Positions 1,921 to 13,059 of a stretch of 64,000 bases of DNA are shown piece after piece (position 1 is the stretch's first letter; each line of letters starts with the position of its first letter). The notes beneath the pieces were generated by a model. It searched no databases, was not told the origin of the DNA, and saw only the letters and a list, made by a program, of their open reading frames with translations. The translations under genes were made by a program, and so were the position numbers. The DNA comes from Escherichia coli (GTDB taxonomy: Bacteria; Pseudomonadota; Gammaproteobacteria; Enterobacterales; Enterobacteriaceae): NCBI RefSeq assembly GCF_044324875.1, contig NZ_CP172185.1, one strand, 5' to 3'.

Positions 1921-2175
1921 ATGGGAATTATTGCCTGGATTATTTTTGGCCTGATAGCCGGCATTATCGCCAAGCTAATCATGCCGGGGCGTGATGGTGG
2001 TGGATTTTTCCTGACCTGTATTCTCGGGATAGTCGGTGCGGTGGTCGGCGGCTGGCTGGCGACCATGTTTGGCATTGGCGGCTCCATCAGCGGTTTTAAT
2101 TTGCACAGCTTCCTGGTGGCGGTAGTGGGCGCTATTCTGGTGCTGGGCGTATTCCGCCTCCTGCGAAGAGAATAA
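1921..2175 (+). CDS. ymgE: Small inner-membrane protein, transglycosylase-associated (GlsB/YeaQ/YmgE) family
   Basis: ORF 1888..2175; the ATG at 1921 is preceded by GAGGG and gives an 84-aa glycine-rich two-helix membrane protein (MGIIAWIIFGLIAGIIAKLIMPG...). Confidence 0.85.
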   Translation: MGIIAWIIFGLIAGIIAKLIMPGRDGGGFFLTCILGIVGAVVGGWLATMFGIGGSISGFNLHSFLVAVVGAILVLGVFRLLRRE

Positions 2176-2187
2176 GATTTTCATAAG

Positions 2188-2220
2188 GCGGATAGCGATA
2201 CAGATGCCGCTATCCGCTTT
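2188..2220. terminator. Hairpin between convergent ymgE and the TonB-receptor gene (possible bidirectional terminator)
   Basis: GCGGATAGC (2188-2196) pairs with GCTATCCGC (2209-2217), followed by TTT; A/T-rich on the opposite strand. Confidence 0.55.
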
Positions 2221-2224
2221 CACA

Positions 2225-4195
2225 TCAGAACGTATACTCGATACCTGCCCAGAAATTGCGACCTTCTTCAATAAACCCTTCACTGTAGGCATATTTGGTA
2301 TCAAACAGGTTATTGACCGACGCATTGACGCTGAAGCCATGACCTAAGGTGTAATCGGCTCGAATGTGGGTCACCGCAAAACCGGCGGCTTTTTGTGAAC
2401 CGTCACTGTTGCTGTAGCTGGAGGAACGCGCCTCTTCCGACAGCGTTACGCTTAACGGCTCCCACGGTTTGAGAGTCATCCATGCGGTCATTGTCTGCGT
2501 TGGCAGATCGGTTATCTTGCCGATGTCTTTGCGTTTGGCGTCAGCGTGGATCAGGGCGTAGCTCAATCCTACATCCAGTATATTGCTGATTTTCCCCTTA
2601 ATACCGGCATCCAGACCGCTGTAATCCACCGTGCCGCTGTTCTGATTTTGAATGGTATCGGCATCGATATTGTGCGAGAGGATGGCATCACTCACCCGGT
2701 TATAGTAAACGCTGACCTCAAACCCCCAGTCGTGCGTGAAGGCACCATTCCAGGTTAAATCCACCCCGCGCGCGCGTTCCGGTTTGAGCTGCGGGTTAAC
2801 AATCGCTATCTGGTTATACGCAGGTTTGGACGTGGTATAGCGTTCTTTCAGCGTCGGAAAGCGTGTGCGGTCATAGTACGAAAGCGCCAGCGTGTCTTCA
2901 TTGGCAAAGTGGTATTTCCCCATCACCTGCCAGTTAAAAGCTGACTGATTGTTGTCGTCATAATGGGTGATGCTTCCATCTTTCTCATGTTTTTTCGCTT
3001 CTACGCTATCGCGCCAGTCATAGCTGATTCCAGCCACGACATCGACATTATCGGCAGCAGCCCATTGATATTCACTGGCGAGCGACCAGGTACGATCTTC
3101 ATAGCGATCGTAAGCGGCGTGCGGCGCACCTTTTTCCCGGTGTACGTCATCTTTCCAGTTAACGGCAAACGACAACAGATCGTTTTCACGCACATCGGCT
3201 GCCAGTTGTAACCCGGCACCGTCGCTGTAATCGGAATAATGGCTGTAGCTGCCTTTTTTATTTTTCAAATCAGCCAGCGAGTTGTACATCATTAGCGTAT
3301 TTTCAAAGGTGTCGCGATACAGCCGACTTTTCAGGGTAAAACGATCGTTTAGTTGGGTCGTTCCCTGATAATAAAAACTTTCTTTGTCATACTCTGGCCA
3401 CTGCCAGTAGCGTGATTTCTGACCACTATTTCCACTGTATGGCGGGTTATCTTTTTCACCATCCTGCTTAATGTAAGTCAATGTGTATTCATCGTTTTCG
3501 CGTGGTGTAAAACCGAGCTTCACAATGCCGCGTTTATCATCAGCCGATGAATTAATCATCTTGCCGTGTTTGCCTGCAATATCATTATTTACACCATGCG
3601 GCAGGCCGAGAAAATCCTGCTTTAGCTGGCTACCGCTGACTTGCAAATACCCCAGATCGCTGCTGGCGGCAAATGAAGCATGCATATCGTAGGCATTGTC
3701 CTGGCTACGGCTCCATCCCTGGCGATATCCCAGATTTGCTTCCAGAGGTTTTGTTGGCTTCTGGGTGGTGATATTAATGGCTCCGCCCATCTGATTAGGC
3801 CCCTGAAGCAGCGACGAATACCCTTTGGAAACTTCAACTGCCCCCAAATTGTTGGTCAGAATCCGCGCCAGATCGAGGTTGCCGTCATAGGGAACATAAA
3901 TGGGCACACCGTCGAAATAGACCGGCACCTGACGACTATCAAAGCCACGAACTTTGACCTGTTCTTCGTTGCGGCTACCTGACTTTTGCAGCACCACGCC
4001 GGGGACGACACTTAATGCCTGAGCGACATTCTGTTTATCCAGGGCCTTCATGGTGGGTTGATCGAGAACGGTGGTCGTCGTCGATGATACCGGACTGGAC
4101 CATACGGTCAGCGTGTCACTCTCCTGAGCCGCTACGGCCTGCTGGGTAAAGGCAAGTGATAATGCTGTGCAGAGATAACGTTTTTTGAGTCTCAT
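2225..4195 (-). CDS. TonB-dependent outer-membrane receptor (substrate unknown)
   Basis: ORF 2225..4216; the likely start is the ATG at 4195 (the 4216 start is TTG). It has a signal peptide (MRLKKRYLCTALSLAFTQQAVAAQ), a TonB-box-like DTLTVW, a plug and long beta-barrel, and a C-terminal aromatic residue (…AGIEYTF). No counterpart at this position in K-12 as I remember it. Confidence 0.85.
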   Translation of the reverse strand: MRLKKRYLCTALSLAFTQQAVAAQESDTLTVWSSPVSSTTTTVLDQPTMKALDKQNVAQALSVVPGVVLQKSGSRNEEQVKVRGFDSRQVPVYFDGVPIYVPYDGNLDLARILTNNLGAVEVSKGYSSLLQGPNQMGGAINITTQKPTKPLEANLGYRQGWSRSQDNAYDMHASFAASSDLGYLQVSGSQLKQDFLGLPHGVNNDIAGKHGKMINSSADDKRGIVKLGFTPRENDEYTLTYIKQDGEKDNPPYSGNSGQKSRYWQWPEYDKESFYYQGTTQLNDRFTLKSRLYRDTFENTLMMYNSLADLKNKKGSYSHYSDYSDGAGLQLAADVRENDLLSFAVNWKDDVHREKGAPHAAYDRYEDRTWSLASEYQWAAADNVDVVAGISYDWRDSVEAKKHEKDGSITHYDDNNQSAFNWQVMGKYHFANEDTLALSYYDRTRFPTLKERYTTSKPAYNQIAIVNPQLKPERARGVDLTWNGAFTHDWGFEVSVYYNRVSDAILSHNIDADTIQNQNSGTVDYSGLDAGIKGKISNILDVGLSYALIHADAKRKDIGKITDLPTQTMTAWMTLKPWEPLSVTLSEEARSSSYSNSDGSQKAAGFAVTHIRADYTLGHGFSVNASVNNLFDTKYAYSEGFIEEGRNFWAGIEYTF

Positions 4196-4220
4196 AGAAT
4201 AAATTCCGTTTAACAAAGAA

Positions 4221-5075
4221 TTAAATAGAGGCTGCGGGTTGCAGACTGACTTTAATGTCAGCTGGTGTCGCGTAATAAGGCGCGGAGGTAATAAAAAGGC
4301 GAATGCCGCAGTCGAGGTAATTTTTGAGTGTTGTCAGATTAATTCCACCGGTCAGAGCCAGCGTGCAGTGAGGAGCCAGCGACGGTGCTATTTGCGCAAT
4401 TTCAGTTGCCTGTTGCGGACTAAATTTGTCGAGCTGAAGTACGTCTGGTTGCGCGCGTAACGCGGCGATTGCCTCTTTCGGCGTGTCGGCTTCAACAACT
4501 ATTTTCTTCTCGGGTGCGTGGCGACGTAACTGATTGATTGCGCCTGACCAGTCCTGATTGTCATGAAGAAAATGACGGTGGTTGGCAAACAATAATATGG
4601 TTTCCGCACATCCGGCACGATGAATCAGTCCTCCGGCAGCCAGAATTGCCTGCGAGGCCAGTAAGCGGGTGCCCGGAATCGCTTTTCGGGTGCAGGCGAT
4701 ATTGCCATCAGGGTAACGTTCACGAAGTAACGCCAGCATTTGAGCGAGATAATCAGAAACACCGCAACTCCACTCCAGCACATTCTGGACTGCCTTCCAT
4801 CCCTGATGAAGTGCTGCGGCATTACCCTGCGCACGGATTAGCCGCTGACGCGCGTTCGCTTGTGAACCGTCGCTGACCGCGTCATCAATAGTTAATCCCA
4901 GCGTAGTTAACATCTTACACGCGACAGAAATTCCGCTGACGCAGCCGCCCTGACGGTGAAAAAACTCTATATAGCCATGCTGGTGTCCAATATTTAATGC
5001 TCGCGTGGTCAGGTCACCGCCCTGGATATCTTCCAGAAGTAACGCATCGATTTGTGCCTGAGAAAGGAAAATCAT
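4221..5075 (-). CDS. ModD-like protein (NadC / quinolinate phosphoribosyltransferase fold family)
   Basis: 284-aa ORF with blocks alignable by eye to NadC (…TRKAIPGTRLLASQAILAAGG…, …VVEADTPKEAIAALRAQPDVLQLDKF…). Family assignment is from motif recognition only, with no profile search. Confidence 0.6.
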   Translation of the reverse strand: MIFLSQAQIDALLLEDIQGGDLTTRALNIGHQHGYIEFFHRQGGCVSGISVACKMLTTLGLTIDDAVSDGSQANARQRLIRAQGNAAALHQGWKAVQNVLEWSCGVSDYLAQMLALLRERYPDGNIACTRKAIPGTRLLASQAILAAGGLIHRAGCAETILLFANHRHFLHDNQDWSGAINQLRRHAPEKKIVVEADTPKEAIAALRAQPDVLQLDKFSPQQATEIAQIAPSLAPHCTLALTGGINLTTLKNYLDCGIRLFITSAPYYATPADIKVSLQPAASI

Positions 5076-5884
5076 CGCAGTGCCTCTTGCGGTACGCTAT
5101 CCCACCAGATGAGCGCCCAGTCGCGGCTGGCAGGGGCGAGGGCACGAGCATCTTGTTGTTGATACCAGCGATATAACCGCTCACGCTCATCGTCGTTAAG
5201 TGCGCCCAGACTCCAGCTGACGTTCTGCTCAAAACGTTCCCAGGTGCTGTTATCCTGTTGGCAATTTTGTCCACGGATAAAATCAACGTGAGCATAAATT
5301 CCCATCTGATACAGGACGTTGAGCGCAAAGATATAGTTGGGTAATTCGATCACTTCCCGACCAGCCGCCCGCTGAATGGCTGGAGAGACGAACGAGGTGC
5401 TGACCAGATGAGTCGTATAGACGCGAAGCCGTGCCTGATTATTCAGTTTGCTCATTGCCTGGCGCATATCAGCCACCAGAGTGGAGCGGGAAGCCACGGC
5501 AATATCGCAGCGTGGCAGGTCACTCCAGTCCTCTTCCCAGGCGCGCTGGATCCAGTGGACATTGTCTGCCTTTAGCGCGGCGGCGCGACGGGCGGCAACC
5601 TTCAGCATCCCCTGACTGTAATCAACGCCATAAATCGTCGTGAGTTTGTCAGCCAGCGCCAGCGATACGGTACCCGGTCCGCAGCCCATATCGAATAAGG
5701 TCTGCGCGCCTTGCAGATCAATTTTAGCGGTCAGTTGTTGCAGGTAGCTGTCCGTAGGCGAGGCGCAATTTTCCGCCATTTTTTCCGCCCGTTGATCCCA
5801 GTGATCCGGCGTTTTTTCTGTGCGGTGGGCCAGTTTGAGTTGCTGCAGGTAAAGGTCCGCAAAATCAATATCATCAATGAGCAT
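5072..5884 (-). CDS. Class I SAM-dependent methyltransferase
   Basis: 270-aa ORF with the Rossmann motif I LFDMGCGPG and acidic motif II (IYGVDYS); start overlaps the ModD-like stop by 4 bp (ATGA), indicating translational coupling. Confidence 0.7.
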   Translation of the reverse strand: MLIDDIDFADLYLQQLKLAHRTEKTPDHWDQRAEKMAENCASPTDSYLQQLTAKIDLQGAQTLFDMGCGPGTVSLALADKLTTIYGVDYSQGMLKVAARRAAALKADNVHWIQRAWEEDWSDLPRCDIAVASRSTLVADMRQAMSKLNNQARLRVYTTHLVSTSFVSPAIQRAAGREVIELPNYIFALNVLYQMGIYAHVDFIRGQNCQQDNSTWERFEQNVSWSLGALNDDERERLYRWYQQQDARALAPASRDWALIWWDSVPQEALR

Positions 5885-5893
5885 GATTGTTCC

Positions 5894-6652
5894 TTAGTGG
5901 CTAATTGCAGAGAGGTGATGATGAATCTGGTCGGCAGAAACCCGATACAGGGCAGCCAGTTTGTTCGTTGTTAACTGTTCGGTCGGTAAGCCTTGTGTTA
6001 CTCGTCCATCTGGCTCTACCTGGATAATGCTGTCGGCAATGGCGTTGGCATGGAGCGGATGATGAGTCGACATTAGCATTGTCATGCCGTTATTTTTGAG
6101 CTGCGCCAGCGTGTCCAGTAGTTGGATCTGATGACCGAAATCGAGGCTGGAGGCAGGCTCATCCAGTAATAACAAGCGCGGTTGCTGGACGAGTGCACGG
6201 GCGATTAAAGCCAGCTGACGTTCACCGCCGCTAAGCGTATTCCAGCGTCGTGTCGCCAGATGCAAAATGCCCAGCTTTTCCAGTTGCTCCGTTGCTTTCA
6301 GGCGTTCTTGCTTACCGGGAACGGAAAAAGCGCCTATGGTGGGGGCCAGGCCCATCAACACCATATCCAGCACACTAAAAGCAAAAACGCCGTCGTGCGC
6401 CTGCGGCACCCAGGCAATAGCCTGCGCGCGTTGGCGATGGCTGAGTGTCTGCACAGGGAGGCTATCCAGTAAGATCTCGCCTTTTCATAACGGTATAACG
6501 CCAAGAATGGAGCGCATGAGTGTGGTTTTGCCGCAACCATTGGCTCCTAACAGACAACAAATTGTTCCTTGCGACAGGGTGAAGGACACGTCGCGTAGCA
6601 CCGGATGGCGGGAGTAACCCAGAGACGCATGACGGACGGCAAGCAAAGTCAC
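5894..6652 (-). pseudogene. ABC transporter ATP-binding protein (FecE/BtuD-like) interrupted by an in-frame TGA
   Basis: Track ORFs 6485..6790 (Walker A GANGCGKTTLMRSILGVIPL) and 5894..6454 (LSGGERQ signature, Walker B LLLLDEP) are in the same frame, separated only by TGA at 6485-6487 (complement). Read through, the sequence is contiguous (…ILGVIPL*KGEILLDSLPVQTLSHRQRAQAIAWVPQ…). The proposed GTG start at 6652 overlaps the permease stop (GTGA). Confidence 0.8.
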
Positions 6653-7629
6653 TGGCGACCTCCGCGTAACAACAAAAACAGGAAAAACGGTGCACCAACA
6701 AAAGCGGTCAGAATGCCAAGTGGGATTTCTGTTGTTCCAATGCTGCGTGCCAGCGTATCGGTAAGCAGGAGCAGAATCGCGCCAGTACACATTGCCATGG
6801 GCAACAGCTGCTGATGGTTATGACCGGTCAACAAGCGAGCAATGTGCGGAACGACCAGGCCGACCCAACCAATTATGCCCGCTATTGCTACCGTGCTGGC
6901 GGTGATTAGTGTGGCGCAGACAATTAATCCAAAGCGCAGACGTGTCACGTTCAGTCCCAGCGAACGGGCTTCGTCGTCGGAAAGCGTGAGTAAATTCATG
7001 CGCCAGCGGAGAAAAAACAGGGGCAAGGAGCCTATGAGAATGATCGGTGCAGCATAGCAGAGATCGCGTAAGGTCACGGTGGACAGCCCCCCCAGCAACC
7101 AGAAGGTAATTGACGGTAACTGGGTGTAAGGATCGGCCAGCGTTTTTATTAGCGATATCCCCGCTCCGCACAACGTTCCTAACGCAATGCCTACCAGCAC
7201 CAGGGTTAAGATCGGATCGTGGCGGGTCACCCGACGCGTAATCAACCAGACGCCCGCGACCACCATCAGCCCGCCGCAAAATGCGTACAGCTGGATGTAA
7301 ACAATGGATAATCCCCACAGGATTGCCGCGCAGGCACCAAGTCCGGCACCGGCGGAGACGCCTAAAATATCCGGTGACACTAAGGGATTACGGAACATTC
7401 CCTGATAGGTGGTTCCGGCCCCTGCCAGCGCCGCGCCCAGAAACAGCGCAGCAAGAATACGCGGCACGCGGATTTGCCAGAAGACAATTTGTTCCTGCAC
7501 AGGAACATTTTCTTGACGAAGAATGAGCGCCAGCAGTTGCTGTATATCGAGATGATAAGCCCCACTTACGGCGGCAAAAGTGATACTGATAGCTGCCAGC
7601 AGCAAAATACATCCGTTTACGGTTCTCAT
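6649..7629 (-). CDS. ABC transporter permease, FecCD/BtuC family
   Basis: 326-aa multi-helix membrane ORF typical of iron-siderophore/cobalamin-type permeases; start overlaps the binding-protein stop (ATGA). Confidence 0.85.
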   Translation of the reverse strand: MRTVNGCILLLAAISITFAAVSGAYHLDIQQLLALILRQENVPVQEQIVFWQIRVPRILAALFLGAALAGAGTTYQGMFRNPLVSPDILGVSAGAGLGACAAILWGLSIVYIQLYAFCGGLMVVAGVWLITRRVTRHDPILTLVLVGIALGTLCGAGISLIKTLADPYTQLPSITFWLLGGLSTVTLRDLCYAAPIILIGSLPLFFLRWRMNLLTLSDDEARSLGLNVTRLRFGLIVCATLITASTVAIAGIIGWVGLVVPHIARLLTGHNHQQLLPMAMCTGAILLLLTDTLARSIGTTEIPLGILTAFVGAPFFLFLLLRGGRQ

Positions 7630-8651
7630 TAGCTCGTCACCAATTTTTGATAGTCGGCGTCACTTAATGGGCAATGCCAGAACAGTTGGGCGTAATGCTG
7701 CATGTCACTTTTAAACTGGCGATTGATGGCGGGATCCAGCCAGGCGTGAAGTCTGCGTAATCCCAGAAGACGGTTGATTCCCGGCGGGGCATCCAGCCAG
7801 CCAAAGGGCAGGCCACTTAAAAATAAGATGCGTTGTTCCGCAACCGCTTTCACGCCCTGCCAGAGAGGATCACGACGAATAAAATCTGCAGTAACGGCCT
7901 CCTGAACCAGAATAATATCCGGCTGCCAGCGCAGGAGATTTTCCATGGAAACCTGTGTCAGACCGTGGCGATCGGCTATTTGCGCGACGTTATGCAAACC
8001 TAATAATTCCGCCGCCTCGGTATGCAACGAACCCTGTAAGCCCGTTTCCAGCCCTCGAGGACCGCGCGCAGCATAAAAGCTGAGGTTAGCGGCGGGTGAG
8101 GTGGCGAATGCCTGAGCTTCACCAACGAAGCGGCTGGCGAGATTGGCTTGTTCTGCGGCGCGGTGCTCTTCGCCTAACGTTTTGCCAAGCGTTGTTAACT
8201 GTTCTGCTGATTGTTCCAGTTTCCCGTTAAGCAATAACCAGGGTATTTGTGTCTGTTCGCTAACCTGCCGTGCCTGGGAGATCCAGGTTTCATCCGTATT
8301 GCCGCAATCAACGACCAAATCGGGATGTAACGCCATAAGCCCTTCCAGCGAGAGTGTGCTGGCGCGCCCGGCGAGTCGTCCCAGCCTGGGTAACTGGCGA
8401 ATGTGCTCTGGCAATGGAATTAATGCCTGACGGGCAAAATCAAAAGAGGAAAAACCGACCATTTTTTCTGGCGCGACAGCCAGCAATAGCAAATCGGCGG
8501 GCGCACCTGCGCTGACGATGCGTGTAATGTTTTGGGCTTCGGGAAGCGTCAGTGAGGCCCAGAATTTGACTGATTGTGCAAAAGAAGGCAGATGATGCAG
8601 GAACAACGTCGACGCAAGAATCTGTGTAAACCTCCGTCTGGTTAGTGACAT
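7629..8651 (-). CDS. Periplasmic substrate-binding protein of the ABC importer, with a twin-arginine-like signal
   Basis: 340-aa ORF; N-terminus MSLTRRRFTQILASTLFLHHLPSFAQS has T-R-R-x-F, a hydrophobic core and an AxA-like site; first gene of a six-gene minus-strand operon. Confidence 0.75.
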   Translation of the reverse strand: MSLTRRRFTQILASTLFLHHLPSFAQSVKFWASLTLPEAQNITRIVSAGAPADLLLLAVAPEKMVGFSSFDFARQALIPLPEHIRQLPRLGRLAGRASTLSLEGLMALHPDLVVDCGNTDETWISQARQVSEQTQIPWLLLNGKLEQSAEQLTTLGKTLGEEHRAAEQANLASRFVGEAQAFATSPAANLSFYAARGPRGLETGLQGSLHTEAAELLGLHNVAQIADRHGLTQVSMENLLRWQPDIILVQEAVTADFIRRDPLWQGVKAVAEQRILFLSGLPFGWLDAPPGINRLLGLRRLHAWLDPAINRQFKSDMQHYAQLFWHCPLSDADYQKLVTS

Positions 8652-8920
8652 AAGTTATATCCTGATAATTAAAACCGCTATATATTTACATATATATCGA
8701 AAAAAATCATGTTTGATGTCAAAATTTGTCTAAAGAGACAGAATGATTTGCTTGTTGCTTAAATAACACTTTGTTCCACAAGAAAATTGTCAGGGAGAAT
8801 GGCGGAGTGGCAAAAAATATAAATAGAGGTGTAATGATTAACAAATTGATAAAATAAAATTAAAATCTTCTCTGATAAAAGAAAATAAAGGCATAGACCG
8901 TAGAATGGGGGGCATTTCGT

Positions 8921-8967
8921 GGCGAAAAAAGAGCAATGCCAATTTTATGCACATAATGGCATTGCTC
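8921..8967 (-). terminator. Candidate intrinsic terminator downstream of treA
   Basis: Perfect 11-bp inverted repeat GAGCAATGCCA (8931-8941) / TGGCATTGCTC (8957-8967) with a 15-nt loop, followed on the minus strand by a T-tract (complement of GGCGAAAAAAGA). Confidence 0.6.
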
Positions 8968-8981
8968 GATATACAGCAAAG

Positions 8982-10679
8982 TTAAGGCGTAGGTTCCGCC
9001 TCTTTTTGTTTTACCGGCTGTGTTGTTGATTCACTGAGTGGACGCGTCGCCGGAACATTGTCACACGGTTGCTCTTTCGGGCAGAGCAAATCCAGCATTT
9101 TCAGCGTCACGCCATTGGTCCAGCCAAAGCCATCCTGTAATGGATATTCGCCACCGCCGCCCCCTGTTCCGGTGGTGCTGACATCATATTTCTCGACCAG
9201 CTTCTTCTCCCGGTCATAAGTGTGCTGAACATTGGTCAGGAAGTGCCAGCTAATGTCCATCGCCACCTCGTTCTGCCCGTAGTTTTGCAACCCTTCTGTC
9301 GCCACCCATTGCAGGGGAGCCCAGCCATTTGGCGCATCCCATTGCTGTCCACTTTTCACCGACGTGGTGTTCAGGCCGCCTGGTTGCAGCAGATGTGTTT
9401 TCGTCGCCGTCGCCATTTTGTTGGCGCGATCTTTCGCTGCCGCATTGACGTACAGCGGGAACAGGGCGGCAGCGGTTAACTGATTGCGCACTTTATGACT
9501 TTTCAGGTCGTAATCGGCATACCAGCCTTGTTGATCGTTCCACAGGTATTTTTCGATCCCTTTTTGACGGGCATTCGCCAGCGTTTCGTACTGGTTTGCC
9601 ATCGCGTTATCTCCGGAAGCTTTGCTGGCGCGGGCGAGGATTTTTTCCATTTTAAACATCAGGCTGTTCAGATCGACCGGTACGATGCTGGTGGTGCGTA
9701 AGGTATTTAACTGCTGCGGATTGTCCATCCAGCGCGAGCTGAAATCCCAGCCAGACGCAGCGGCAGAGCGCAGGTCGCGGTAAATTTCAGTGGCAGGTCG
9801 ATTCGGATTGCTTTTGGCGGTGGCAATATCTTCCACCCATGACTCTGGTCGTGGCGTATCGCGATCGTCCCAGTAGCGGTTGAGAAGGGTACCATCCTGA
9901 AGTTTTACAACGCGTTTTTCCTGTTGTCCGGCTTGCAGGTTTTCAACACCGTCCATCCAGTAAGCATATTCTTTTTGCATTTGCGGCAGGTATTGCTTCA
10001 ACGCGGCATCGCCTTCATGCTGCGCCAGTAACTCTACCATCAGGGCAAAGAAGGGCGGCTGCGAGCGACTTAAATAGTAACTGCGGTTGCCGTTGGGAAT
10101 ATGACCGTAAGTGTCTATTTCATGAGCAAAATTGGCCACCATATCCGCGACTTTATCCCAGTGACCGCTTTCGGCAAGCCCCAGCATGGTGAAGTAACTG
10201 TCCCAGTAATACACTTCGCGAAAACGTCCTCCCGGCACGACATAGGGTTCCGGTAACGGCAACAGAGAATCCCATTTCTCGGTACTTTCGGTAGAACGGG
10301 TTAACACCGGCCAAAGTCCGTCTATATGTTCGCGTAGTGATTGCCCCTCTGGCGGAACATATTTCTCGCCCTCTTTCGGCAGGGTGAAATTGACGTTAAC
10401 GAAATGGCGCAGATCAAATCCGCTCTGGTTTTGCTGCATCCGATAATCAGCAAGGATCATCAGCGGATCGCTGTTCGGCACGGCATCGGCAAAGGTTTTT
10501 TGGTCCGGAAAAAGTTTGGCGTTTTGCACATCATTAAACAGCGGCCCTAATAAAATATCAGGCGGCTGTGGCGTTACCGGTGTTTCTTCTGCCTGCACCG
10601 ATAGCGCAGCGAAACACAAAAAGATGCAGGTTGGAATTAACGCCATTTTTAGCGGGCGAGAAGCTGCGGGGGATTTCAT
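8982..10679 (-). CDS. treA: Periplasmic trehalase
   Basis: ORF 8982..10682; the protein ([32 protein letters not shown]…) is recognised as TreA with signal peptide. The start is placed at the second Met to match the remembered 565-aa protein. Confidence 0.93.
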
Positions 10680-10997
10680 CAATCATTCTCCTTTGGCGAA
10701 ACCGAATAAAACGGTATTCAAGTATCAGAAAACCTTAGTTCAGGATCGCACTAGCTGCATGATCGAAATCTCATTCTGCGAACGGTCAGGCATTTTAGAA
10801 AAGGGAATTAAAGGGATAAATAACGTCGAAATAGAGTGAACAAATAACGTCTGTTTGTTAGCCAGCCAGCGGCGTTGGGTTCGCGATTAGCGAAGAAAAA
10901 TCATCACAAATTGGTGAAAAATATAACAGGTAGTTAAAAACATCCGTGCAGAGTAAATAGCCGGATGACATCAGAACGATGCCATCCTAACTGTGGT

Positions 10998-12416
10998 TTA
11001 ACCCTGACGGCTGAAACGTTGCGTTTTAACGTCCAGCGTTAGCGTTTCTTCTGGTTGTATCGCATACAGTTTCTCACCCTGCTGGCAAATCCAGCCAATC
11101 CCCAGTTCACGGGCGATCAGGGCGCTGTGGGATAGCGGACTTCCGGCGCTAAGGCAGATACCTTTTACAACCGCCGGATCCAGTTGCAGTATTGTGGAGG
11201 GATAGATGTTCTCCGCCAGTAGAATAGTTGGCGAGTTAAACTGCGGGAGTTCTTCTTTCGTTTGGGTCAGGTGGACCAGGGTGCGATGCAGAAGATCGTC
11301 CACATCAATATAGCGAGCCTGTAGATATTCATCATCCAGTTGCTGGTATTGCTGGCTAAGTTCTTTAAGAACTTGCTGCCAGGCATATTCTGCCGTGCAA
11401 TGTTCATGCTGAAGGAGTTCGCTTGCCGCTGCCAGCAGTTCCGGATCATCTAACAGTGTATGGTGACCAGAAAAGATTGCGGCAATATCGTCAAGCCCGC
11501 TGGCTTCTGCTTTCGCTGTTAACGTCATCAGATCTAATAACGTGAAGTCAATGGCCTGGCGTAATCGTTCTTGTTCTTCATCCACGGTCAGGGTTGATTT
11601 TGCCTGTACCGTACATAAAACCGGTTGATAATAAAAGGTTTTACCCGAAACAGGCGGAACGGGACGCAGAATAGGTGGAGCAACTTCCTCCGTTTCACCA
11701 AAGTTATCTTCAGCCAGCTGACGGAAAGCGATCAGTGCCTCTTCAGCTTCTGGCCCTTTCGCAATCAGGCGCAGCGTATCGTTATAGCGAACTTGTAGTA
11801 ACGCAATCTGGTTAATACTCTCCGGTGTGACGCATTTGCCGTTTTTCTCCAGCAACATATCGGCATTAAATGTCGATAAGGTATAAACCAGCCGGGAGGC
11901 CGGACGTACATGCAGGCCGTTACGGTTTTTAATGACCACCGCCAGAGAACGGGCTTCTTCATCGTAGGCAGGACATGACTCAGAGATTTCAGTGTCGGAG
12001 GAGGGTAAACCCAGTTGTTCACGTTTGGCTTCCAGCGCATGCATGGCGTCAAAGATAACTTTGTCGATATCCGCCCCCGAGGCCGCGCTGACCGTTGCTG
12101 CCAGTGTACCTTCGACCAACGGCGCAGCACACAAACGTACTTTTGCGGCGATCTCGGGAGCCAGCAATTCCAGCGCAGTTTCAGCACTCAATAATGCGCT
12201 ACCCATATCCATCATGACCAGCACATGGTCGGCATCGGCAACAGATTCGATGGCCTCCATCACTTTGACGGCATCGGTACCAATGGGATTTTGTGGATCG
12301 TCAATTCCCGCGGCAATGGCGATTTTACAACTATCACTCATTAACATCTGACGGGCTAATTCACCGACACCTTCTCCCAGTCGGCTGCTATGTGAAACTA
12401 TGACCAGGTTTACCAT
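10998..12416 (-). CDS. dhaM: Dihydroxyacetone kinase phosphotransferase subunit DhaM (PTS EIIA-HPr-EI fusion)
   Basis: ORF 10998..12422; the sequence from MVNLVIVSHSSRLGEGVGELARQ… is recognised as DhaM. Confidence 0.92.
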   Translation of the reverse strand: MVNLVIVSHSSRLGEGVGELARQMLMSDSCKIAIAAGIDDPQNPIGTDAVKVMEAIESVADADHVLVMMDMGSALLSAETALELLAPEIAAKVRLCAAPLVEGTLAATVSAASGADIDKVIFDAMHALEAKREQLGLPSSDTEISESCPAYDEEARSLAVVIKNRNGLHVRPASRLVYTLSTFNADMLLEKNGKCVTPESINQIALLQVRYNDTLRLIAKGPEAEEALIAFRQLAEDNFGETEEVAPPILRPVPPVSGKTFYYQPVLCTVQAKSTLTVDEEQERLRQAIDFTLLDLMTLTAKAEASGLDDIAAIFSGHHTLLDDPELLAAASELLQHEHCTAEYAWQQVLKELSQQYQQLDDEYLQARYIDVDDLLHRTLVHLTQTKEELPQFNSPTILLAENIYPSTILQLDPAVVKGICLSAGSPLSHSALIARELGIGWICQQGEKLYAIQPEETLTLDVKTQRFSRQG

Positions 12417-12426
12417 CACCAATTCC

Positions 12427-13059
12427 TTACTCTTTTGCGGCTAACGCCAACATTTGCATCATAAACATCACCGAGGTCGCACCGGGGTCCTGGTGACCAA
12501 TACTGCGTTCACCGAGATAACTGGCGCGGCCTTTGCGGGCTTGCATCGTAATCGTACTTTGTGCAGCGGATTCGGCGATGCTACTGGCAGCTTCGAGCGC
12601 CGCCGGAACAGAGAGATTTTGCTCGCTGGACTGACGTAACGATTCCACCACCGGCACCCACACATCACACATGGTTTTATCGCCAGGTTCGGCTTTACCG
12701 CGACTGATTACGCCGTCCGCGCCATCGCGGAACATCTGATAAAGCTCTTCCAGCGTCAGGCTTTGCCGTGCCTGGGTCGCCTGTGCGGCGCGGATAAAGA
12801 AGGTACCGAAAAGCGGACCACTGGCACCACCGACGCTGGAAAGTAGCGTCATACCGGTATTCTTGAGAATGAAACCGATATCTTTATCTGCGATAGCAGG
12901 GAGTTTTTCCACCACTTTGCTAAAGCCTCGGTTCATATTTAGCCCGTGGTCAGCGTCGCCAATTTCGCGATCCAGTCCGGTAAGATACTCGCTCTCGGTG
13001 TTGAAAATATCGCCACAACGAGTGAGCCAGTTAACAATTTGAGTTCTGCTCAGTGACAT
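12427..13059 (-). CDS. dhaL: Dihydroxyacetone kinase ADP-binding subunit DhaL
   Basis: ORF 12427..13137; the internal Met start MSLSRTQIVNWLTRCGDIFN… gives a 210-aa DhaL. Confidence 0.92.
   Translation of the reverse strand: MSLSRTQIVNWLTRCGDIFNTESEYLTGLDREIGDADHGLNMNRGFSKVVEKLPAIADKDIGFILKNTGMTLLSSVGGASGPLFGTFFIRAAQATQARQSLTLEELYQMFRDGADGVISRGKAEPGDKTMCDVWVPVVESLRQSSEQNLSVPAALEAASSIAESAAQSTITMQARKGRASYLGERSIGHQDPGATSVMFMMQMLALAAKE

What the first reader, a model, noticed from the sequence alone, without database searches (positions are those of the whole stretch)
4221..5884. Translationally coupled ModD-like phosphoribosyltransferase-fold gene and SAM methyltransferase inside a transporter operon
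The ModD-like ORF shows blocks similar to NadC (type II phosphoribosyltransferase fold) and its start overlaps the stop of a class I SAM methyltransferase (ATGA). ModD-family proteins have no established biochemical function. Co-transcription with a methyltransferase and a dedicated TonB/ABC importer suggests a salvage or modification step acting on the imported molecule. That is a hypothesis from gene context only.
Basis: inference. Interest (0 to 1): 0.6.

Follow-up and report, generated by a model that had tools for sequence, protein, structure and literature searches.

The report
Molybdenum-regulated TonB/ABC uptake operon with ModD
The ModD and methyltransferase genes are real and translationally coupled, but they sit in a known E. 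coli accessory operon (prrA-modD-yc73-fepC), long labelled "iron uptake", whose conserved operator and closest relatives point instead to molybdenum or tungsten acquisition.

Summary
On the minus strand a 270-aa class I SAM methyltransferase (5884..5072) ends in ATGA, which starts a 284-aa ModD protein (5075..4221). Both lie inside one operon: binding protein, FecCD permease, ABC ATPase, methyltransferase, ModD, TonB-dependent receptor.

The window is E. coli. The operon is the accessory island known as prrA-modD-yc73-fepC (O157 ECs1693-1699), present in 2139 of 5426 complete genomes and described in papers only as possible iron uptake.

New here: a near-perfect ModE (molybdate repressor) operator lies 22 nt upstream of the first gene. 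Such boxes recur at the same places in at least 41 of 44 orthologous clusters across 11 genera. No Fur box exceeds chance.

The permease's best solved relative is MolB of the Haemophilus molybdate/tungstate importer, which also sits next to modD. The closest solved binding protein (4PAG) is encoded beside modE in Sulfurospirillum.

ModD is not NadC: two quinolinate-site residues are replaced family-wide. ModD also follows classical ModBC-type genes in other taxa.

Best reading: a ModE-repressed, TonB-dependent Mo/W import system with a conserved methyltransferase–ModD module of unknown chemistry. In this window the ATPase carries a nonsense codon.

The parts
8674..8701 (.). ModE operator-like palindrome. 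Minus strand reads TTCGATATATA-TGTAAA-TATATAGCGGT, matching 18 of 20 specified positions of ATCGNTATATA-N6-TATATANCGAT. It ends 22 nt before the ATG of the first gene.
   Evidence: The core pattern CGNTATATA-N6-TATATANCG occurs once in the 64 kb window with 0 mismatches, and in 0 of 100 shuffles. The consensus is quoted in PMC545781. The authentic E. coli modA operator scores 16 of 20 and ends 17 nt before the modA ATG. The same position is occupied in 34 of 44 orthologous clusters.
8717..8722 (-). TTGACA hexamer, a possible -35 element about 16-17 nt upstream of the operator's left half.
   Evidence: Read directly from the sequence. The consensus scan did not call it as a full promoter, so this is inference only.
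7629..8651 (-). Periplasmic substrate-binding protein (340 aa) with a twin-arginine-type signal (TRRRF). Equivalent to ECs1699/Z1966.
   Evidence: Pfam Peripla_BP_2. The best solved relatives are 4PAG (95 bits; TM 0.79) and then MolA HI1472 (34.6 bits; TM 0.67, rank 3). The RR motif is conserved in orthologues.
6649..7629 (-). FecCD/BtuC-type (type II) ABC permease, 326 aa.
   Evidence: Its best match in the whole PDB is MolB HI1471 (2NQ2) at 222.8 bits, against FhuB 175, HmuU 168 and BtuC 146.
5894..6652 (-). ABC ATPase gene ('fepC'), interrupted in this window by a TGA at codon 56 (nt 6487..6485; changed base 6486), downstream of Walker A.
   Evidence: Translation shows PL*KGE. The same codon is TTA (Leu) in L001 (99.7% identical) and in O157 L002. 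The intact protein's best bacterial PDB match is MolC HI1470 at 126.6 bits.
5072..5884 (-). Class I SAM-dependent methyltransferase ('yc73'), 270 aa, with the motif DMGCGPG.
   Evidence: Pfam. No NCBIfam family is reached. The AlphaFold model has pLDDT 92. Nearest folds are small-molecule N/O/C-methyltransferases with TM 0.5-0.6.
5072..5075 (-). ATGA overlap: the methyltransferase stop (TGA) sits inside the ModD start (ATG).
   Evidence: A 4-nt overlap is conserved in 47 of 50 loci.
4221..5075 (-). ModD protein, 284 aa, with the type II phosphoribosyltransferase fold.
   Evidence: TIGR01334 at 498 bits and Pfam QRPTase_N/C. Active-site comparison.
2225..4195 (-). TonB-dependent outer-membrane receptor ('prrA'), 656 aa. 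It has a signal peptide and a DTLTV TonB-box-like motif. Its start is 25 nt after the ModD stop.
   Evidence: Pfam Plug plus TonB_dep_Rec_b-barrel. RefSeq start. No specific NCBIfam equivalog is reached.

Best explanation
The six genes form one ModE-controlled operon for acquiring molybdenum, and probably tungsten too. Steps marked (inferred) are not shown by any result here.

1. When cytoplasmic molybdate is plentiful, molybdate-bound ModE sits on the palindrome 22 nt upstream of the first gene and blocks transcription, as it does at modA (inferred from sequence and comparative data).
2. Under Mo limitation the cell makes three things. The first is a TonB-energised outer-membrane receptor. 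The second is a Tat-exported periplasmic binding protein with a type II (MolBC-like) ABC importer. Together these bring molybdate/tungstate, or a Mo/W complex, into the cytoplasm (inferred; the ligand is unknown). The third is a translationally coupled methyltransferase–ModD pair.
3. ModD is a cytoplasmic Mo-homeostasis protein found with several kinds of Mo transporter. It keeps the PRPP/ribose-binding residues of quinolinate phosphoribosyltransferase but has a remodelled, more hydrophobic substrate pocket. Most likely it phosphoribosylates a small aromatic acid other than quinolinate, with the methyltransferase modifying the same metabolite (inferred, low confidence).
4. In this particular strain the ATPase nonsense codon probably inactivates import.
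For: Regulation.
- The operator matches the E. coli ModE consensus at 18 of 20 positions. It is unique in the window and absent from 100 shuffles.
- It scores better than the real modA operator (16 of 20) and has nearly the same spacing to the start codon.
- Across 80 species loci there are 81 boxes scoring at least 16 of 20 in 1.52 Mb, against 0-6 in 20 local shuffles. Nearly all lie just upstream of the binding-protein gene, or between modD and the receptor gene, or upstream of modBC-like genes followed by modD, or upstream of modD alone.
- At least 41 of 44 full clusters carry a box.
- No Fur box exceeds chance in 42 upstream regions. There is no riboswitch.

Homology.
- The permease's best PDB hit is MolB, the ATPase's best bacterial hit is MolC, and the binding protein's best characterised relative by sequence and by fold is MolA.
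- MolA binds molybdate and tungstate, and molB is repressed by molybdate (PMC4031551).
- The Haemophilus mol locus also contains modD (PMC3928620).

Independent lineages.
- The 4PAG binding protein of Sulfurospirillum is encoded next to a full-length ModE (33% identity, E 7e-30), alongside exbBD-tonB, FecCD/ABC genes, a TonB-dependent receptor and ModE boxes.
- Related clusters in Desulfuromonas and Desulforegula carry TonB-dependent receptors plus Mo/W-cofactor genes or a regulator with a molybdopterin-biosynthesis-like C-terminal domain.
- Pectobacterium has a Mop molbindin gene directly upstream of the cluster.

ModD.
- It occurs behind TOBE-less ModC-like ATPases in 10 loci.
- Its residues equivalent to M. 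tuberculosis QPRTase R139, K140, H161, R162, E201 and D222 are kept, but K172 becomes Phe and E104-R105 becomes Trp-Lys across 86 diverse ModDs.
Against: - There is no experimental datum for this operon. Regulation, ligand and enzyme activities are all predicted.
- The binding protein is only about 20% identical to MolA, and siderophore- or haem-binding proteins follow closely in fold score (TM 0.62-0.71).
- A bare oxyanion would not obviously need a TonB-dependent receptor, and E. coli already has high-affinity ModABC.
- MolBC-A is a low-affinity system.
- Nothing explains why a methyltransferase and a phosphoribosyltransferase-like protein would be needed to import an inorganic ion.
- The literature consistently calls the cluster an iron system, although without data.
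Confidence: 0.65

Rival explanations
1. The standing annotation: a Fur-type iron or siderophore uptake system. PrrA is the receptor, FepC-like, FecD-like and binding proteins import the ligand, and ModD and the methyltransferase are passengers.
For: The transporter parts belong to broad families dominated by iron-chelate systems (TonB-siderophore/hemin subfamilies, FecCD, Peripla_BP_2). Papers list the cluster among iron-uptake loci.
Against: No transporter part reaches the cutoff of any iron-specific NCBIfam model. The best Fur-box matches upstream are 9-14 of 19 and no better than shuffles in 42 loci. ModE boxes are conserved instead. The closest characterised importer is the molybdate system MolBC-A. 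There are no siderophore biosynthesis genes nearby. The papers give no functional data.
Confidence: 0.08
2. The importer takes up an organic heterocycle or a Mo-loaded chelator (a 'molybdophore'). ModD (PRPP-dependent) and the methyltransferase then process, salvage or destroy that ligand in the cytoplasm to release or recycle it.
For: The fixed six-gene order is conserved in 44 species loci, with translational coupling. ModD keeps the ribose/phosphate-binding residues but has a changed aromatic-acid pocket. The methyltransferase has a small-molecule methyltransferase fold. Needing a TonB-dependent receptor fits a bulky ligand better than a free oxyanion. Distant homologous clusters also carry extra enzymes (radical SAM, methyltransferase, DUF364).
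Against: ModD is equally found behind ModBC-type oxyanion transporter genes, or alone. The methyltransferase–ModD pair survives without the importer in Edwardsiella and Leminorella, preceded by a ModE box in several of these loci. The methyltransferase of Desulforegula is not orthologous. No exporter or chelator biosynthesis gene is present.
Confidence: 0.2
3. ModD is not an enzyme here but a regulatory or oxyanion-binding subunit. It senses cytoplasmic molybdate, or a Mo-related metabolite, and modulates the transporter ATPase, standing in for the TOBE/Mop domain that classical ModC carries.
For: In 10 loci ModD directly follows a 199-215 aa ModC-like ATPase that lacks the TOBE domain. Two metagenomic proteins fuse such an ATPase domain to ModD, and one fuses ModD to Mop domains. 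The cluster of Arg/Lys/His residues that binds anionic groups in QPRTase is retained.
Against: The fusion proteins are singletons and could be frameshift artefacts of overlapping genes. The acidic residues that hold the PRPP ribose, and the GG phosphate loop, are conserved, which suggests catalysis. In E. coli ModD is coupled to the methyltransferase, not to the ATPase.
Confidence: 0.15
4. A corrinoid or cobalamin-related import and modification system.
For: The permease scores well against BtuC models, and the methyltransferase's top NCBIfam hits are CpaM and CbiT-like.
Against: All these scores are far below cutoff (for example 43 against 180 bits). There is no cobalamin riboswitch or any Rfam hit in 12 kb. 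MolB outranks BtuC by 76 bits.
Confidence: 0.02

Closest known systems
Haemophilus influenzae MolBC-A (HI1470-HI1472), the type II molybdate/tungstate ABC importer, with adjacent modD (HI1473)
   Same: A type II FecCD-type permease plus ATPase plus Peripla_BP_2 binding protein. The E. coli permease and ATPase have MolB and MolC as their best solved bacterial relatives, and MolA is the best characterised relative of the binding protein. modD is in the same locus. Expression is repressed by molybdate in Haemophilus, and that is predicted here from the ModE box.
   Different: The binding protein is only about 20% identical to MolA. The E. coli cluster adds a TonB-dependent receptor and a methyltransferase, both absent from the H. 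influenzae locus as listed. A Glaesserella relative does have both. MolBC-A is described as low affinity. Nothing has been measured for the E. coli system.
E. coli ModABC / ModE regulon
   Same: The same operator consensus at nearly the same distance from the start codon as at modA. Presumably the same repressor and the same signal.
   Different: ModABC is a type I importer with a ModA-type binding protein and a TOBE-bearing ATPase, and it has no outer-membrane receptor. The proteins of the two systems are not homologous, apart from the generic ATPase fold (27-35% identity).
NadC, quinolinate phosphoribosyltransferase (type II PRTase)
   Same: The same two-domain fold (Pfam QRPTase_N/C). The residues equivalent to M. 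tuberculosis R139, K140, H161, R162, E201 and D222 are retained.
   Different: It is below the nadC model cutoff (133 against 198 bits). Mtb K172 becomes Phe163, which is nearly invariant in ModD. E104-R105 becomes Trp93-Lys94. The gene context is Mo transport rather than NAD synthesis.
ModD of Rhodobacter capsulatus modABCD and of nif/mod clusters in diazotrophs
   Same: The same TIGR01334 family. It is linked to molybdenum transport or use, and its function is unknown.
   Different: Those copies sit with modABC or nif genes. This one sits with a methyltransferase, a type II importer and a TonB-dependent receptor.
Fur-regulated TonB-dependent siderophore systems (Fec, Fhu, Fep)
   Same: The overall architecture: outer-membrane receptor plus binding protein plus FecCD permease plus ATPase.
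   Different: There is no Fur box. ModE boxes are present instead. No iron-specific family model is reached. Two cytoplasmic enzymes are embedded in the operon.
Opine-metallophore loci (Cnt: staphylopine, pseudopaline). This comparison is from my own knowledge and was not tested here.
   Same: The logic is similar: a metal-sensor-repressed operon combines an outer-membrane or ABC importer with a SAM-using enzyme and a second small-molecule enzyme.
   Different: No homology was found, and there is no exporter or nicotianamine-synthase-like signature. This is an analogy only.

Membership tests
ModD (NCBIfam TIGR01334) | Whole-protein score above the curated cutoff | tested here: met
   498.4 bits against a cutoff of 178.85, covering model positions 1-277.
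NadC / quinolinate phosphoribosyltransferase (TIGR00078) | Score above the curated cutoff | tested here: not met
   133.5 bits against a cutoff of 198.4.
NadC / quinolinate phosphoribosyltransferase (TIGR00078) | Full set of quinolinate/PRPP-binding residues (Mtb R105, R139, K140, H161, R162, K172, E201, D222; the list is from my own knowledge of the 1QPN work) | tested here: not met
   Alignment to 1qpn shows six retained. K172 becomes F163 and R105 becomes K94 (with E104 becoming W93). F163 and W93 are at least 90% conserved in 86 ModDs.
Class I SAM-dependent methyltransferase | Rossmann methyltransferase domain with a GxGxG SAM motif | tested here: met
   Pfam Methyltransf_31/25/12/11. The motif D65-x-G67-C-G69-x-G71 is invariant. 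The fold was confirmed.
Any named methyltransferase equivalog (UbiE, BioC, CbiT, CpaM, PrmC and others) | Score above the curated cutoff | tested here: not met
   The best is CpaM at 43 bits against a cutoff of 180. All others are lower.
ModE regulon (E. coli type) | Operator matching ATCGNTATATA-N6-TATATANCGAT in the promoter region | tested here: met
   18 of 20 at 8674-8701, unique in the window, 0 of 100 shuffles. The modA operator itself scores 16 of 20.
ModE regulon (E. coli type) | Conservation of the site in orthologous loci of other genera | tested here: met
   At least 41 of 44 clusters have a box scoring 16 of 20 or better at equivalent positions. In total 81 sites against about 2 expected.
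ModE regulon (E. coli type) | Molybdate- and ModE-dependent transcription in vivo, and ModE binding in vitro | not testable with these tools
   Needs reporter fusions, EMSA or footprinting.
MolBC-A type II molybdate/tungstate importer | Permease and ATPase closest to MolB and MolC among characterised transporters | tested here: met
   MolB 222.8 bits against the next best FhuB at 175. MolC 126.6 bits is the best bacterial importer ATPase.
MolBC-A type II molybdate/tungstate importer | Binding protein orthologous to MolA, with its oxyanion-binding pocket | tested here: inconclusive
   MolA is the best characterised hit, but only at 34.6 bits, about 20% identity and TM 0.67-0.69. The pocket residues could not be checked because the paper is not held.
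MolBC-A type II molybdate/tungstate importer | Binding and transport of molybdate/tungstate | not testable with these tools
   Needs ITC or uptake assays.
Fur-regulated siderophore uptake system | Fur box in the promoter | tested here: not met
   The best match is 13 of 19 in the window (21% of shuffles do as well). Across 42 orthologous upstream regions the range is 9-14 of 19 with no enrichment.
TonB-dependent receptor | Plug domain plus 22-strand barrel domain, signal peptide, TonB box | tested here: met
   Pfam Plug (E 7e-21) and TonB_dep_Rec_b-barrel (E 1e-33). The signal peptide and the DTLTV motif were read from the translation.
Cobalamin/corrinoid uptake (Btu) | Cobalamin riboswitch, or BtuB/BtuC/BtuF equivalog scores | tested here: not met
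   No Rfam match at E up to 1. BtuB, BtuC and BtuF models are all far below cutoff.

The most novel reading that the evidence does not exclude
The prrA-modD-yc73-fepC island would be one member of a widespread and, as far as I could find, undescribed class of TonB-dependent molybdenum/tungsten acquisition systems, found in Gamma-, Epsilon- and Deltaproteobacteria. In these systems a Mo/W sensor (ModE or an analogue) controls an outer-membrane receptor, a MolBC-like importer and accessory enzymes. The methyltransferase–ModD pair would make or process a small heteroaromatic Mo/W ligand. That would give ModD its first biochemical role and would define a 'molybdophore'-type pathway in enteric pathogens.
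Probability: 0.2. Interest if true: 0.85.

Novelty: new variant of a known kind. Interest (0 to 1): 0.62.

Why it matters
Molybdoenzymes (nitrate reductases, formate dehydrogenases) drive Enterobacteriaceae blooms in the inflamed gut. How these bacteria compete for trace Mo is therefore relevant to colonisation.

This island is present in about 40% of complete E. coli genomes, including O157:H7, APEC and ExPEC strains, and in Proteus, Providencia, Morganella, Citrobacter and Pectobacterium. It has been counted for 20 years as an iron-uptake or virulence marker without data.

If it is really a ModE-repressed, TonB-dependent Mo/W system, three things follow:
- it corrects a widespread annotation;
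- it adds molybdenum to the metals taken up through TonB-dependent receptors;
- it gives a genetically tractable setting in E. coli for the long-open question of what ModD does.

Simple predictions follow: molybdate/ModE repression, tonB dependence, and a phenotype in a modABC mutant at low Mo.

Tried and rejected
- **NadC paralogue.** Rejected on model scores and on two substituted active-site residues.
- **Housekeeping methyltransferase.** Rejected: no equivalog is reached, and fold neighbours are natural-product or small-molecule methyltransferases at 10-20% identity.
- **Corrinoid link** (suggested by weak CpaM/CbiT/BtuC hits). Rejected: no riboswitch and low scores.
- **Fur regulation.** Rejected: nothing above shuffles in 42 promoters.
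- **Promoter and terminator consensus scans.** Uninformative: the counts equal the shuffle expectation.
- **Genome scan with the 86-sequence ModD alignment.** It was repeated with 17 closer sequences, so the 80 loci are biased towards Gammaproteobacteria and do not sample the diazotroph or Geobacter ModDs.
- **Methyltransferase of the Desulforegula cluster.** It shares only the SAM motif with yc73 and is not an orthologue.
- **ATPase–ModD and ModD–Mop fusions.** Each is a single sequence, so they are treated as weak evidence.
- **Shewanella.** It has the methyltransferase alone next to an IS element, which is uninformative.
- **Papers wanted but not held.** Studholme and Pau 2003 (ModE sites) and Tirado-Lee 2011 (MolA structure). 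I therefore could not check whether this ModE site was already reported, nor compare MolA pocket residues.
- **Paper searches.** All ten were used. None returned a paper linking this cluster to molybdenum.
Full report
**1. What is there.** The window is Escherichia coli chromosome. The 6.9 kb around the finding matches E. coli genomes at 98-99.7% identity. It is flanked by emtA, ycgR and ymgE on one side and by treA and dhaM on the other.

On the minus strand six genes follow each other with 0-25 nt gaps or overlaps:
- a periplasmic binding protein (8651..7629);
- a FecCD-type permease (7629..6649);
- an ABC ATPase (6652..5894);
- a class I SAM methyltransferase (5884..5072);
- ModD (5075..4221);
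- a TonB-dependent receptor (4195..2225).

Pfam confirms QRPTase_N/C for ModD, methyltransferase domains for its neighbour, Plug plus barrel for the receptor and Peripla_BP_2 for the binding protein.

**2. It is a known, named island.** At least 80% of the region is present in 2139 of 5426 complete E. coli genomes. In O157 Sakai the genes are ECs1693-1699, equivalent to Z1961-Z1966, S-loop 83 and O-island 55.

A 2007 paper equates them with the 'prrA-modD-yc73-fepC' cluster of the uropathogenic CFT073 pathogenicity island, 'proposed to be involved in iron uptake' (PMC1890555). Another paper lists the cluster as iron-uptake locus 4 (PMC2323221). A 2026 paper still says 'possibly mediating iron uptake' (PMC12928451). 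None of these gives functional data, and I found no paper linking the cluster to molybdenum.

**3. ModD is ModD, not NadC.** NCBIfam places the protein in TIGR01334 (498 bits, cutoff 179). It misses the nadC model (133 bits, cutoff 198). No ModD structure has been solved; the best PDB relatives are quinolinate phosphoribosyltransferases at E 3e-19 and weaker.

In the alignment to the M. tuberculosis enzyme, the residues equivalent to R139, K140, H161, R162, E201 and D222 are kept. K172 is Phe163, and E104-R105 is Trp93-Lys94. In 86 diverse ModD sequences F163 and W93 are at least 90% conserved, together with T129-R130-K131, H152-R153, E195, Q214, K217 and G243-G244. The acidic position 216 is Asp or Glu.

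So the ribose/phosphate side of the active site looks intact, while the quinolinate side is remodelled and more hydrophobic. The roles assigned to these residues come from my own knowledge of the QPRTase literature.

The methyltransferase reaches no named family (best 43 bits against a cutoff of 180). Its confident model (pLDDT 92) resembles small-molecule N-, O- and C-methyltransferases only generically (TM 0.5-0.6, 10-20% identity).

**4. The unexpected part: a ModE operator.** The minus strand at 8701..8674, ending 22 nt upstream of the binding-protein ATG, reads TTCGATATATA-TGTAAA-TATATAGCGGT. The E. coli ModE consensus is ATCGNTATATA-N6-TATATANCGAT (PMC545781). The site matches 18 of the 20 specified positions.

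The core pattern occurs once in the 64 kb window with no mismatch, and in none of 100 shuffles even when two mismatches are allowed. For calibration I fetched the mod locus of O157 Sakai. The authentic modA operator scores 16 of 20 and ends 17 nt before the modA ATG. The site here is therefore a better match in an equivalent position.

There is no riboswitch or other Rfam hit in 12 kb. The best Fur-box match is no better than shuffled sequence.

**5. Comparative test.** A scan of one genome per species with a ModD alignment returned 80 loci.
- The order binding protein, permease, ATPase, methyltransferase, ModD (plus receptor) is conserved in 44 of them. These come from Escherichia, Citrobacter, Raoultella, Enterobacter, Klebsiella indica, Yokenella, Proteus, Providencia, Morganella, Pectobacterium and Pantoea.
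- The methyltransferase–ModD overlap is ATGA or GTGA in 47 of 50 loci.
- Boxes scoring at least 16 of 20 number 81 in 1.52 Mb, against 0-6 in each of 20 locally shuffled sets.
- The boxes are not scattered. They sit just upstream of the binding-protein gene (34 clusters) and/or in the spacer between modD and the receptor gene (25 clusters). At least 41 of 44 clusters have one or more. Of the three apparent exceptions, one has its box 45 nt outside my counting window and one lacks the upstream DNA in its contig.
- In Proteus, Providencia, Morganella and Pectobacterium the receptor gene has its own box.
- Edwardsiella, Leminorella and Intestinirhabdus keep only the methyltransferase–ModD pair. 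A ModE box precedes the pair in four of these six loci, and a weaker one in E. tarda.
- In Pasteurellaceae, Yersinia alsatica, Photobacterium and Gilliamella, ModD instead follows ModB- and ModC-like genes, several of which have a box upstream. The ModC-like ATPase there is only 199-215 aa and lacks the TOBE domain.
- Pectobacterium has a Mop molbindin gene directly upstream of the cluster.

**6. What the transporter resembles.** Against all PDB sequences:
- The permease's best hit is MolB (HI1471, 222.8 bits), ahead of FhuB (175), HmuU (168) and BtuC (146).
- The intact ATPase's best bacterial hit is MolC (HI1470).
- The binding protein's hits are an uncharacterised protein, 4PAG (95 bits), then MolA (HI1472, 34.6 bits).
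- A model of the binding protein (pLDDT 86) gives the same order by fold: 4PAG at TM 0.79, then MolA at TM 0.67. Siderophore- and haem-binding proteins follow closely.

MolBC-A is the Haemophilus type II importer for molybdate and tungstate. molB is repressed by molybdate (PMC4031551). The locus reads modA, molABC, modD-salX-cysU (PMC3928620). A Glaesserella locus contains a receptor, an ATPase, a methyltransferase, ModD, a permease and a binding protein of the E. coli type, together with three ModE boxes.

**7. An independent lineage.** I traced 4PAG to its gene in Sulfurospirillum deleyianum. It lies next to a full-length ModE homologue. That protein is 33% identical to E. coli ModE (E 7e-30), and its ModE and Mop domain models score above cutoff.

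The pair is divergent from exbB-exbD-tonB-FecCD-ABC genes and a TonB-dependent receptor. E. coli-type ModE boxes sit in both regulatory regions. The neighbours include FdhD, a selenocysteine-containing molybdoenzyme-like gene and a NarJ-like chaperone.

Relatives in Desulfuromonas and Desulforegula combine a receptor, TonB-ExbBD, the binding protein and FecCD/ABC genes with other Mo/W-related genes. These include a regulator carrying a molybdopterin-biosynthesis-like C-terminal domain, an XdhC-type aldehyde-oxidoreductase maturation factor, FmdE, radical SAM proteins and a non-orthologous methyltransferase.

The association of this binding-protein subfamily with a TonB-dependent receptor and with Mo/W genes is therefore not confined to enterics.

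**8. Interpretation.** Shown directly by sequence and comparison:
- the operon structure;
- the family assignments;
- the conserved ModE-type boxes;
- the absence of Fur boxes;
- the MolBC-like affinity of the importer;
- the recurrent link of ModD to Mo transporters.

Inferred:
- ModE represses the operon when molybdate is plentiful;
- the system imports molybdate/tungstate or a Mo/W complex;
- ModD and the methyltransferase act in the cytoplasm on a small aromatic metabolite.

The ligand is the weakest point. A TonB-dependent receptor and two enzymes are more than a bare oxyanion seems to need. It also keeps alive a regulatory, non-catalytic role for ModD (about 0.15).

The iron reading has only family-level annotation behind it (about 0.08).

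**9. This strain.** The ATPase gene in the window has TGA where near-identical genomes have TTA (codon 56, base 6486). The remaining open frame lacks Walker A. The importer is therefore probably inactive here, unless this is a sequencing error. The other five genes are intact.

The gene pair is not new: it belongs to a named island. The evidence re-assigns that island from iron to molybdenum/tungsten and ties it to the MolBC-A type of importer, with a TonB-dependent receptor and a methyltransferase–ModD module added. I rate it a new variant of a known kind, with interest 0.62.

Two caveats apply. Everything rests on sequence inference. I also could not read the 2003 ModE-site survey, which may already list this site.

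Noticed in passing
window 6485-6487 (minus strand, codon 56 of the ATPase gene 6652..5894): TTA to TGA nonsense change truncates the ABC ATPase after Walker A. The codon is intact in a 99.7% identical genome and in O157. The importer is probably dead in this strain, or this is a sequencing error.
   Followed up: partly
window 8651..8560 (N-terminus of the binding protein); loci L011-L066: The binding protein carries a twin-arginine-type signal (TRRRF, and S/T/H/N-R-R-x-F in almost all orthologues). This suggests Tat export of a folded protein.
   Followed up: partly
L050, L073, L074, L076, L077, L078, L080, L082, L084, L086 (about 9320-10017): ModD directly follows a short (199-215 aa) ModC-like ATPase that lacks the TOBE regulatory domain of E. 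coli ModC. In two loci the 4-nt overlap is the same.
   Followed up: partly
proteins P0264, P0265, P0288 (metagenomic): Two ABC-ATPase–ModD fusions and one ModD–Mop fusion. Each is a single sequence, so they may be frameshift artefacts.
   Followed up: partly
L007 3643-4071 (Pectobacterium wasabiae): A 142-aa di-Mop molbindin gene (TIGR00638, 136 bits) sits directly upstream of the six-gene cluster.
   Followed up: yes
L089 (Glaesserella australis) 2132-12881: A rearranged version of the system: a receptor–ATPase–methyltransferase operon, a second FecCD/ABC/binding-protein set, ModD, and a divergent permease plus binding protein. Three ModE boxes are present, and an unannotated 243-aa gene lies between the units.
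   Followed up: partly
L091 9041-10822 and L092 13915-15735: Radical SAM proteins lie next to the homologous binding-protein genes in Sulfurospirillum and Desulfuromonas. In Sulfurospirillum the radical SAM protein is fused to a Peripla_BP_2-like region. Function unknown.
   Followed up: no
L093 1613-2482 and 9265-10080 (Desulforegula): Two DUF4213/DUF364 genes flank a receptor–methyltransferase–TonB–binding protein–FecCD–ABC cluster, next to an XdhC-like maturation factor.
   Followed up: no
loci L010-L066, receptor gene versus the other cluster genes: The receptor diverges much faster than the cytoplasmic and inner-membrane parts. Its identity to E. coli is 89%, 65%, about 46% and about 33% in lineages where ModD is 95%, 88%, about 77% and about 59%. 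This is typical of surface-exposed receptors, but it could also mean replacement.
   Followed up: no
L008 (Shewanella avicenniae) 7743-9816: A 64%-identical copy of the methyltransferase stands alone beside an IS transposase, without ModD or a transporter.
   Followed up: no
L002 and L009 (O157:H7), beside the island: In O157 strains treA and ycgR next to the island are annotated as frameshifted or split. In the window treA is an intact 566-aa ORF.
   Followed up: no
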